DNA of 5,577 bases from Escherichia phage G4. Shown piece by piece: positions 4,020 to 5,577 of the stretch. Position 1 is the stretch's first letter. Every line of letters starts with the position of its first letter. The stretch is from the sequence record NC_001420.2. One strand, 5' to 3'. The position numbers and the translations under genes were made by a program. Under the pieces are notes generated by a model, which did no database searches, was not told where the DNA came from, and saw only the letters and a list, made by a program, of their open reading frames with translations.

Positions 4020-4553
4020 ATGTTCCAGAAATTCATTTCTAAGCACAATGCTCCAATTAACTCTACTCAGCTTGCTGCTACTAAAACCCCAGCTGTAGCG
4101 GCACCTGTTTTATCTGTGCCTAACTTAAGTCGCTCTACTATTCTAATCAATGCAACAACCACAGCCGTTACAACTCATTCAGGCTTGTGCCATGTTGTTC
4201 GCATTGATGAAACAAACCCAACAAATCATCACGCTCTATCTATTGCAGGTTCGTTATCAAACGTCCCTGCTGATATGATTGCTTTTGCCATTCGTTTTGA
4301 GGTCGCTGATGGCGTCGTTCCTACTGCCGTCCCGGCCTTATACGACGTCTATCCAATCGAAACCTTCAATAACGGCAAAGCAATCTCATTTAAAGATGCT
4401 GTTACCATCGACTCACATCCCCGCACCGTCGGTAACGACGTTTATGCGGGAATCATGCTCTGGTCTAACGCTTGGACCGCCTCTACTATCTCTGGCGTCC
4501 TCTCTGTTAATCAGGTAAACCGTGAAGCAACCGTCCTTCAACCTCTGAAATAA
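4020..4553 (+). CDS. G: Major spike protein G (177 aa)
   Basis: Product begins [10 protein letters not shown] and ends ...LSVNQV.....LQPLK, matching the conserved N- and C-termini of recalled phiX174 G (MFQTFISRHN ... LQPLK) with internal motifs (YDVYP, VTID..PRT.GN.VY.G.M.WSN). SD AAGGA (4008-4012) at 7-nt spacing. Confidence 0.93.
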
Positions 4554-4563
4554 GGATTATCCT

Positions 4564-5577
4564 ATGTTTGGCTCTATCGCTGGCGGTATCGCCTCCGCAC
4601 TTGCCGGAGGCCTTATGGGTAAATTATTTGGCGGCGGTCAGTCCGCCGACTCTACCGGAATCCAAGGCAACGTCCTTGCTTCCGACAACAATGTTGTAGG
4701 TGCTAATGATGCTGGTATTAAATCTGCTATTCAGGGCTCTACTGTCCCTAACTCTCAGGAAGCTGCTCCCTCTGCTATCTCTGGCATCCTTGCCGACTCT
4801 GGCAAGCATGCGCTCTCGTCTCTTACCAATGCTGGTGCAAATAAACTCATGGAGGCTGTCGGCCTTTCTAAGTCTGCCTCTGACAAGGGCAAGGACACAA
4901 AAGACTATCTCGCCGCCGCATTCCCCGAGCTCAACCCATGGGAACGTGCTGGTGCTGGCGCTTCTAGTCCAGGCATGCAAGACGCTGGCTTCCAAAATCA
5001 GAAGGAGCTAACCAAGATGCAGCTTGACAACCAAAAGGAAATCGCTAAGATGCAAAACGAAACTCAGAAGGAAATTGCTGGGCTTCAATCTATTACATCA
5101 CGCGAAAATACTAAGGATACTGTCTATGCTCAAAATGAAATGCTCGCGTATAACCAAAAAGAGTCTATGTCACGCGTTGGCGCTATTCTCGAAAACACAA
5201 GCCTCACCAAACAGCAACAAACTTCTGAAATTATGCGGCAAATGCTTACTCAGGCTCAAACCGCAGGTCAATATTTTACAAATGACCAAATCAAGGAGCT
5301 TACGAGAAAAGTTGGTGCTGATATTGATGCTGTTCGCGCTAACACTGCACGCACCCATGTAGAAACCGACCGCTCAAAACAGGAAGTACAAAACTCCCGT
5401 TATGCCTCTTCTCAGGTAGGTAAAACCGCTAAGGACGTGTCCAATGCAATTACTGATACAGCTGGTTCTATTGTTGATTATTTTCGTGGTGCTGATCAAA
5501 AAGTGGCAGACGTTTACAACAACTATTTCAAAGATGGCAAATCGAAAGGAATAGAATCCAATCACCGCTCCAAATAA
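4564..5577 (+). CDS. H: Minor spike / DNA pilot protein H (337 aa)
   Basis: Product [26 protein letters not shown]...[24 protein letters not shown]...[77 protein letters not shown]...[31 protein letters not shown] is highly similar to recalled phiX174 H, with a glycine-rich hydrophobic N-terminus and a central coiled-coil-like region. SD AAGGA (4552-4556) at 7-nt spacing. Stop TAA is the last 3 nt of the window. Confidence 0.95.

What the first reader, a model, noticed from the sequence alone, without database searches (positions are those of the whole stretch)
4975..5110. Heptad-like repeat in the pilot protein H
The protein segment [32 protein letters not shown] has repeating QKE(L/I) and KMQ units typical of a coiled coil. 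In phiX174, H oligomerises into a tube that delivers DNA across the cell envelope. The underlying AAG/GAA-rich DNA also creates the spurious basic ORFs seen in the other frames.
Basis: partly seen in the sequence, partly recalled or inferred. Interest (0 to 1): 0.25.

Follow-up and report, generated by a model that had tools for sequence, protein, structure and literature searches.

The report
Hendecad repeats of G4 pilot protein
The flagged repeat is real but already well known: it is the three 11-residue (not 7-residue) repeats that begin the coiled-coil tube which the pilot protein H of phage G4, like that of phiX174, builds to pass its DNA through the bacterial envelope.

Summary
The window is the complete 5577-nt genome of Escherichia phage G4 (99.6% identical to AF454431). 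Gene H is 4564-5577 (+), 337 aa, and matches Pfam Microvir_H at E=2e-138. The quoted peptide is there, at H residues 144-175 (nt 4993-5088).

Its period is 11 residues, not 7. The units are [22 protein letters not shown] and [11 protein letters not shown] (nt 4999-5097). Lag-11 identity is 13 of 22 positions, reached by 1 of 5000 shuffles.

The segment is 30/33 identical to phiX174 H 151-183, which lies inside the crystallised decameric H-tube (PDB 4JPP/4JPN, E=1e-57). The literature names that stretch "hendecads 1-3", followed by a kinked transition and 11 heptads.

Across 16 H proteins, down to 32% identity, this part changes length only in steps of 11 residues. In 11 of the 12 where it could be measured, the downstream part differs from phiX174 by 0 or a multiple of 7. 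G4 itself carries two extra heptads.

The basic +1-frame ORFs are out-of-frame readings of the Q-K-E codons. They are no longer than synonymous-codon shuffles give, and their limits are not conserved.

Already known; low interest.

The parts
4564..5577 (+). Gene H: DNA pilot / minor spike protein, 337 aa plus stop
   Evidence: ORF. Pfam PF04687 Microvir_H, E=2.3e-138, 461 bits against a cutoff of 22.7. Annotated H at the same coordinates in G4 AF454431.
4564..4638 (+). Glycine-rich hydrophobic N-terminus ([25 protein letters not shown])
   Evidence: Read directly from the translation. A 12-nt tandem repeat lies at 4569-4592. Conserved in all close relatives. A role in membrane interaction and assembly is from the literature as quoted, not tested here.
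4975..5436 (+). Central coiled-coil (H-tube) domain, residues 138-291, homologous to the crystallised phiX174 H 143-282
   Evidence: phmmer against PDB: 4jpp_A E=1.1e-57, query 138-291 against chain 1-140; 4jpn_A E=1e-33, query 138-216.
4999..5031 (+). Hendecad 1, residues 146-156, [11 protein letters not shown]
   Evidence: Identical to phiX174 hendecad 1, residues 151-161 (PMC7354561 Table 1).
5032..5064 (+). Hendecad 2, residues 157-167, [11 protein letters not shown]
   Evidence: phiX174 hendecad 2 is QKEIAEMQNET.
5065..5097 (+). Hendecad 3, residues 168-178, [11 protein letters not shown]
   Evidence: phiX174 hendecad 3 is QKEIAGIQSAT.
5098..5130 (+). Transition, residues 179-189, [11 protein letters not shown]; helical but kinked in phiX174
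   Evidence: phiX174 184-194 SRQNTKDQVYA is labelled 'Transition'.
5131..5403 (+). Heptad part of the coiled coil, residues 190-280: 13 heptads in G4 against 11 in phiX174
   Evidence: Register table. Alignment to 4JPP and to phiX174. The distance from VYAQ to the R-Y anchor is 93 in G4 and 79 in phiX174.
5335..5376 (+). 14-residue insertion relative to phiX174 and alpha3-like H ([14 protein letters not shown], residues 258-271), equal to two heptads
   Evidence: Gap in the 4JPP alignment. Alignments. Coordinates. Shared by ID2, SECphi17 and P0001-P0019.
5024..5362 (+). Spurious +1-frame ORF: 112 aa, TTG start, pI 11.6. Its basic N-terminus [19 protein letters not shown] is the out-of-frame reading of hendecads 2-3
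   Evidence: No longer than synonymous-codon shuffles give (1341 of 2000 reach the observed length). Its limits are not conserved in relatives.
4700..5011 (+). Spurious +1-frame ORF: 103 aa, GTG start, pI 12.0

Best explanation
Nt 4999-5097 of phage G4 gene H encode three consecutive 11-residue repeats (hendecads; 11 residues per 3 helical turns). They form the N-terminal part of the protein's long alpha-helical coiled-coil domain.

By homology with phiX174 H, ten H molecules leave the capsid at infection and assemble their central helices side by side. The result is a tube about 170 A long that spans the cell envelope, and the single-stranded genome passes through it.

In each hendecad, Q occupies positions 1 and 8. 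These six Q form a nearly straight polar stripe along the helix. I infer that this stripe faces the lumen, as part of the amide/guanidinium lining described for phiX174. I also infer that I/L at position 4 and M/L at position 7 pack against neighbouring helices.

The 11-residue period, rather than 7, sets the helix-crossing geometry of this end of the tube. After a kinked 11-residue transition the helix continues in heptads.

Shown here: the repeat and its period, homology to the solved tube, and conservation of the period with length changes in whole repeats. Inferred: decamer formation by the G4 protein, and which residues face the lumen.
For: - Identity of the locus: the window is G4 (99.6% over 5577 nt). 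H matches Pfam Microvir_H at E=2e-138.
- Period 11: 13 of 22 identities at lag 11, reached by 1 of 5000 shuffles. Lag 11 is the top lag in all six phage H proteins tested, including Pectobacterium phage Mimer at 32% identity. Among the 11 distant representatives it is the top lag in 4 and second in 2.
- Structure: PDB 4JPP/4JPN (phiX174 H 143-282) align to residues 138-291 at E=1e-57. The three hendecads are 30/33 identical to phiX174.
- Literature: PMC7354561 Table 1 labels phiX174 151-183 as Hendecads 1-3, 184-194 as Transition and 195-271 as Heptads 1-11. It describes a decameric tube 170 A long and 22-25 A wide, with 18 of 23 lumen-facing residues being N, Q or R.
- Polar stripe: the Q/N/R indicator in residues 146-178 has its spectral peak at 3.70 residues (11/3 = 3.67). 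Only 3 of 5000 shuffles reach the power at 3.67; 455 of 5000 reach it at 3.5.
- Quantised indels: the WER-to-VYAQ distance could be measured in 15 of 16 H proteins. It is 61 in 13, and 72 (+11, a fourth hendecad) in P0167 and P0175. Mimer lacks the VYAQ anchor but has an 11-column insertion. The VYAQ-to-R-Y distance is 79, 93 (+14), 72 (-7) or 51 (-28) in 11 of the 12 proteins where an anchor was found.
- Protein-level selection: identity between units lies at codon positions 1-2, not 3.
Against: - No structure or oligomerisation data exist for the G4 protein itself. The decamer is carried over from phiX174.
- An AlphaFold2 monomer model was of low confidence (mean pLDDT 41). It supports no more than a continuous helix over residues 141-210.
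- Hydrophobic periodicity in the 33 residues is not significant at either 3.5 or 3.67.
- The text copy of PMC7354561 loses the colour coding, so the lumen-facing residues of the hendecads are inferred, not read.
- In the downstream 'heptad' part, Kyte-Doolittle periodicity peaks at 3.72 rather than 3.5. I cannot explain this.
Confidence: 0.95

Rival explanations
1. A classical heptad (7/2, left-handed) coiled coil with a hydrophobic a/d core.
For: Lags 4 and 7 give secondary identity peaks (5 and 6 identities). Heptads do occur in the same helix from residue 190 on.
Against: - Lag 11 gives 13 identities against 6 at lag 7.
- The Q/N/R stripe is significant at 3.67 residues (3/5000) and not at 3.5 (455/5000).
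- Hydrophobic 3.5-residue periodicity is not significant (571/5000).
- Natural variants of this part differ by 11 residues, never 7.
- The published structure-based register calls the homologous residues hendecads.
Confidence: 0.03
2. The repeat reflects a DNA- or RNA-level element, or an overlapping gene in the +1 frame (the basic 112-aa ORF at 5024-5362), with the H-frame repeat as a by-product.
For: - A 116-codon stop-free +1 stretch overlaps the repeat, and its product is very basic (pI 11.6).
- A sigma-70-like match, TTGACA-16-TAAGAT, lies at 5024-5051.
- Microviruses are known for overlapping genes.
Against: - The longest +1 open stretch (116 codons) is shorter than the mean of synonymous-codon shuffles (144); 1341 of 2000 shuffles reach it.
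- The limits of the +1 open stretches differ among phiX174 (codons 46-250), NC28, SECphi17 and G4/ID2 (150-265).
- Identity between units lies at codon positions 1-2 of the H frame.
- There is no Rfam match, and the RNA fold z-score is 0.21.
- Promoter-like matches are no more frequent than in shuffles (2 against 1.3).
- In phiX174, simultaneous disruption of 71 conserved cryptic ORFs revealed no new gene (PMC6883844).
Confidence: 0.02
3. A recent tandem DNA duplication with no structural meaning.
For: Three head-to-tail units share a similar sequence.
Against: - Third-codon-position identity between units is only 3-5 of 11, and TRF finds no DNA repeat.
- Where it could be measured, the spacing that corresponds to three units, or to four, is kept in H proteins down to 38% identity. 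The unit sequence itself has diverged in the most distant ones.
Confidence: 0.01

Closest known systems
phiX174 DNA pilot protein H, coiled-coil domain (H-tube; PDB 4JPP and 4JPN; Sun et al. 2014 Nature 505:432, cited through PMC7354561)
   Same: - Orthologous gene in the same genome position.
- The central domain aligns end to end at E=1e-57.
- The three hendecads are 30/33 identical, and the transition and heptad registers are kept.
- The lumen-facing residues named in the literature are kept: phiX174 Q241, T244, Q247 and K254 correspond to G4 Q236, T239, Q242 and K249. M251 is L in G4 and E258 is D.
   Different: - G4 has three substitutions in the hendecads (K162 for E, L174 for I, I177 for A).
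- G4 has a 14-residue (two-heptad) insertion at 258-271, so the helical part would be about 20 A longer (inference).
- phiX174 Q265 is E274 in G4. The literature notes that this position is acidic in two clades.
- No structure exists for the G4 protein.
Hendecad (11/3) coiled coils in general
   Same: An 11-residue sequence period with core-like positions spaced 4 and 7 residues apart (Q at positions 1 and 8).
   Different: The periodic stripe is polar (Q), not hydrophobic. The assembly is a hollow ten-helix barrel that conducts DNA, not a solid bundle.
H proteins of more distant microviruses (Pectobacterium phage Mimer; metagenomic representatives P0167, P0175)
   Same: The 11-residue period in the same place, between the WER motif and the VYAQ motif.
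   Different: They have four hendecads instead of three, and the unit sequence has diverged (for example MxNETALxxTA in Mimer).

Membership tests
Microvirus H protein (Pfam PF04687, Microvir_H) | Score above the Pfam gathering threshold over the full profile | tested here: met
   461.3 bits against a cutoff of 22.7; profile positions 1-307 of 310.
Microvirus H protein (Pfam PF04687, Microvir_H) | Gene position after G and before A in a Bullavirinae genome | tested here: met
   The G ORF is 4020-4553 and H is 4564-5577. A starts at 32 of the circular genome. The annotation is the same in AF454431.
H-tube coiled-coil domain (as in PDB 4JPP) | Sequence homology to the crystallised domain over its whole length | tested here: met
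   E=1.1e-57; chain residues 1-140 against query 138-291.
H-tube coiled-coil domain (as in PDB 4JPP) | Three N-terminal 11-residue repeats followed by a transition and then heptads | tested here: met
   Lag-11 statistic. Register identical to PMC7354561 Table 1. Indels of 11 in the first part and multiples of 7 in the second across relatives.
H-tube coiled-coil domain (as in PDB 4JPP) | Lumen lined by N/Q/R side chains | tested here: inconclusive
   The Q/N/R stripe has an 11/3 period (3/5000 shuffles), and the literature-named lumen residues of the C-terminal part are conserved. Which hendecad residues face inward could not be read, because the colour coding is lost and no coordinates were available.
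H-tube coiled-coil domain (as in PDB 4JPP) | Assembly into a decameric tube | not testable with these tools
   Only a monomer prediction is offered, and it had mean pLDDT 41.
Canonical heptad-repeat coiled coil | 7-residue period with hydrophobic a/d positions (3.5 residues per turn signal) in the flagged segment | tested here: not met
   Lag 7 gives 6 identities against 13 at lag 11. Kyte-Doolittle power at 3.5 is reached by 571 of 5000 shuffles. No 7-residue length variants of this part were seen.

The most novel reading that the evidence does not exclude
Length changes in the H coiled coil occur only in whole structural repeats: 11 residues in the hendecad part, and 7, 14 or 28 in the heptad part. 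On this reading the G4 clade builds a tube about two heptads (roughly 20 A) longer than phiX174's, and some distant microviruses build one with a fourth hendecad. Tube length would then be an evolvable, quantised trait, possibly matched to the host envelope. The authors of the phiX174 length-altering mutagenesis (Roznowski and Fane 2016, which I could not read) have probably seen this pattern at least in part.
Probability: 0.6. Interest if true: 0.3.

Novelty: already known. Interest (0 to 1): 0.08.

Why it matters
It matters little as a discovery. The H-tube, with its hendecad-then-heptad architecture, was solved for phiX174 in 2014 and dissected genetically afterwards, and G4 H is a close orthologue.

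The useful outcomes are corrections and controls:
- The repeat period is 11, not 7.
- The periodic stripe is polar, so standard coiled-coil predictors are a poor test for it.
- The basic ORFs in the +1 frame are composition artefacts.

The quantised natural length variation is a tidy comparative confirmation of the published register. It could guide anyone engineering tube length.

Tried and rejected
- **AlphaFold2 on full-length G4 H** with a 10-sequence alignment gave mean pLDDT 41 and pTM 0.25. This is expected for a protein that folds only as a decamer. I ran no fold search on it, because a low-confidence model gives meaningless matches and the sequence match to 4JPP is already decisive.
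- **Papers not held.** Sun et al. 2014 (PubMed 24336205) and Roznowski and Fane 2016 (PMC4988169) could not be read. The structural facts are therefore cited through PMC7354561.
I used lag-identity and Fourier tests with shuffles instead.
- **Kyte-Doolittle hydrophobic periodicity** did not separate 3.5 from 3.67 in the 33-residue segment.
- **DNA and RNA tests were negative:** TRF, Rfam at E<=1, RNA folding (z=0.21), and the promoter/terminator scan, which was not above shuffles.
- **Database noise.** Most of the 150 best hits of the representative-library search, and many 'src' hits of the homologue search, are fragments or chimeras of phiX174. I take them to be sequencing-control contamination. 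They were not used for the comparative test.

Full report
**What the window is.** The 5577-base window is a complete genome of Escherichia phage G4 (Microviridae, Bullavirinae, Gequatrovirus). It aligns end to end at 99.6% identity with G4 isolate Anc (AF454431), and at 96-97% with ID11 and NC13. The ORF at 4564-5577 (+) encodes 337 residues. It matches Pfam PF04687 "Microvirus H protein (pilot protein)" at E=2.3e-138. The G4 record annotates it at the same coordinates as H, the minor spike protein.

**Check of the observation.** The quoted peptide is present in the H frame at residues 144-175, nt 4993-5088.

The repeat is three head-to-tail units of 11 residues:

| Unit | Residues | Sequence | Nucleotides |
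|---|---|---|---|
| 1 | 146-156 | [11 protein letters not shown] | 4999-5031 |
| 2 | 157-167 | [11 protein letters not shown] | 5032-5064 |
| 3 | 168-178 | [11 protein letters not shown] | 5065-5097 |

Within these 33 residues, 13 of the 22 positions comparable at lag 11 are identical. Lags 4, 7 and 18 give 5, 6 and 4 identities, and other lags give 0-2 (lag 22, twice the unit length, gives 4). Only 1 of 5000 shuffles of the whole protein, and 0 of 5000 shuffles of the coiled-coil domain, reach 13 at any lag from 3 to 20. The lag-7 and lag-4 signals come from Q at positions 1 and 8 of each unit.

At DNA level the units are 16-20/33 identical. The identity is concentrated at codon positions 1 and 2 (5-9 of 11), not position 3 (3-5 of 11). 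Tandem Repeats Finder sees no DNA repeat here. The protein sequence is what is conserved; this is not a recent duplication.

**What it is.** A search of all PDB chains finds phiX174 "Minor spike protein H": 4JPP (E=1.1e-57, chain 1-140 against query 138-291) and 4JPN (E=1e-33, query 138-216). The three units are 30/33 identical to phiX174.

PMC7354561 (Roznowski, Fisher and Fane 2020) gives the structure-based register of phiX174 H in its Table 1:

| phiX174 position | Sequence | Label |
|---|---|---|
[quoted passage not shown] | 195-271 | (eleven 7-residue units) | Heptads 1-11 |

The table footnote describes these as "7,2 and 11,3 alpha-helices". The flagged segment is thus the hendecad part of the H-tube.

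**How it works (from the literature).** H is monomeric in the procapsid. At infection, ten copies leave the capsid and oligomerise. [quoted passage not shown] Eighteen of the 23 lumen-facing side chains are N, Q or R. The authors propose that these exert drag on the passing genome.

**Own tests of the period.**
- The Q/N/R indicator over residues 146-178 has its spectral peak at 3.70 residues (11/3 = 3.67). The power at 3.67 is reached by 3 of 5000 shuffles, and at 3.5 by 455 of 5000. The six Q therefore form a stripe that runs straight on an 11/3 helix. That they face the lumen is my inference.
- Kyte-Doolittle hydrophobicity shows no significant periodicity in this short segment at either value. 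The solved structure of a 91%-identical segment is far stronger evidence.
- Lag 11 is the best lag in the H proteins of phiX174, NC28 (alpha3-like), SECphi17, ID2 and Pectobacterium phage Mimer. Mimer is 32% identical overall, and its unit sequence has drifted to MxNETALxxTA.
- Length variation is quantised. I compared 16 H proteins: six phages, plus 11 divergent full-length representatives at 38-48% identity from the exhaustive search.
  - The distance from the conserved WER motif to the VYAQ motif could be measured in 15. It is 61 in 13 proteins and 72 in two (P0167, P0175). Those two have a clear fourth hendecad. Mimer lacks the VYAQ motif and shows an 11-column insertion in the alignment.
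  - Downstream, the distance from VYAQ to the R-Y anchor is 79 in phiX174, NC28, P0140 and P0183. It is 93 (+14) in G4, ID2 and SECphi17, 72 (-7) in four proteins, and 51 (-28) in one.
  - The single exception, P0209, carries a 22-residue triple repeat at that place.
  - Changes in steps of 11 in the first part and 7 in the second are what the published register predicts.

**G4 specifics.** Relative to phiX174, G4 H has a 14-residue insertion (residues 258-271, nt 5335-5376). It falls between the equivalents of heptads 10 and 11 and keeps the heptad phase. If helical, it would lengthen the tube by roughly 20 A; this is an inference. The low-confidence AlphaFold2 monomer does predict a helix through residues 240-276. 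The lumen residues that the literature names as conserved (phiX174 Q241, T244, Q247, K254) are conserved in G4. Q265 is E274 in G4, in line with the statement that it is acidic in two clades.

**The side claim about other frames.** The +1 frame of H holds two ORFs: 4700-5011 (103 aa, pI 12.0) and 5024-5362 (112 aa, pI 11.6; 26 K+R against 1 D+E). The basic N-terminus of the second, [19 protein letters not shown], is exactly the +1 reading of hendecads 2 and 3, since CAA AAG GAA read one base on gives AAA AGG AAA. The stretch is A-rich, with AAG and GAA enriched 2.5- to 2.9-fold.

Several results show the ORFs are spurious:
- The longest +1 stop-free run (116 codons) is shorter than the mean of synonymous-codon shuffles of H (144), and 1341 of 2000 shuffles reach it.
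- The limits of the open stretches differ between phiX174 (codons 46-250), NC28, SECphi17 and G4/ID2.
- In phiX174, disrupting 71 conserved cryptic ORFs at once uncovered no new gene (PMC6883844).
- Nothing at nucleic-acid level stands out. There is no Rfam match, and the RNA fold z-score is 0.21. One promoter-like match lies at 5024-5051, but such matches are no more frequent than in shuffles.

**Verdict.** The interpretation (coiled coil of the DNA-delivery tube, with spurious basic ORFs) is right, except that the repeat is a hendecad, not a heptad. This is an already known feature of a well-studied protein family; G4 adds only orthology. Interest is low.

Noticed in passing
window 5335-5376 (H residues 258-271): G4-clade H proteins (the window, ID2, SECphi17, P0001-P0019) carry a 14-residue insertion, [14 protein letters not shown], relative to phiX174 and alpha3-like NC28. 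It is exactly two heptads inside the coiled coil. The two halves look like a diverged heptad duplication (TARTHVE / TDRSKQE, 11/21 nt identical).
   Followed up: partly
P0064, P0069, P0106 and more than 20 other 317-aa clusters (phiX174 H): Many public phiX174 H sequences lack exactly one hendecad (QKEIAEMQNET, residues 162-172). Others lack stretches between other short repeats. They are probably assembly collapse or slippage in phiX174 sequencing-control reads, but real 33-nt deletion variants are not excluded.
   Followed up: partly
P0167 and P0175 (metagenomic H homologues); L005:532-1602 (Pectobacterium phage Mimer H): These distant H proteins have four hendecads instead of three. The WER-to-VYAQ distance is 72 instead of 61, and Mimer has an 11-column insertion.
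   Followed up: partly
P0209 (371 aa), about 69-135 residues after VYAQ: A 22-residue unit containing Q(T)xYISGAQT is repeated three times at the C-terminal end of the coiled-coil region. It is the only protein whose heptad-part length is not 79 plus a multiple of 7.
   Followed up: no
window 5131-5403 (H residues 190-280): In the part called heptads, Kyte-Doolittle hydrophobicity peaks at a period of 3.72 residues (155 of 5000 shuffles reach the power at 3.67), not at 3.5 (3926 of 5000). Yet length variants there are multiples of 7. Unexplained; it may reflect the two lateral interfaces of a ten-helix barrel.
   Followed up: no
window 5024-5051 (+): A sigma-70-like match, TTGACA-16 nt-TAAGAT (10 of 12), lies inside hendecads 1-2. 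The number of such matches in the region (2) is not above shuffles (1.3).
   Followed up: no
window 4569-4592: A 12-nt tandem repeat (2 copies, 83% matches) underlies the glycine-rich hydrophobic N-terminus of H ([14 protein letters not shown]). Lags 4 and 8 are the next-best protein lags there.
   Followed up: no
window 4624-4995 (-): A 123-aa minus-strand ORF overlaps gene H. To my knowledge all known genes of these phages are read from the + strand sequence, so I took it as spurious and did not test it.
   Followed up: no
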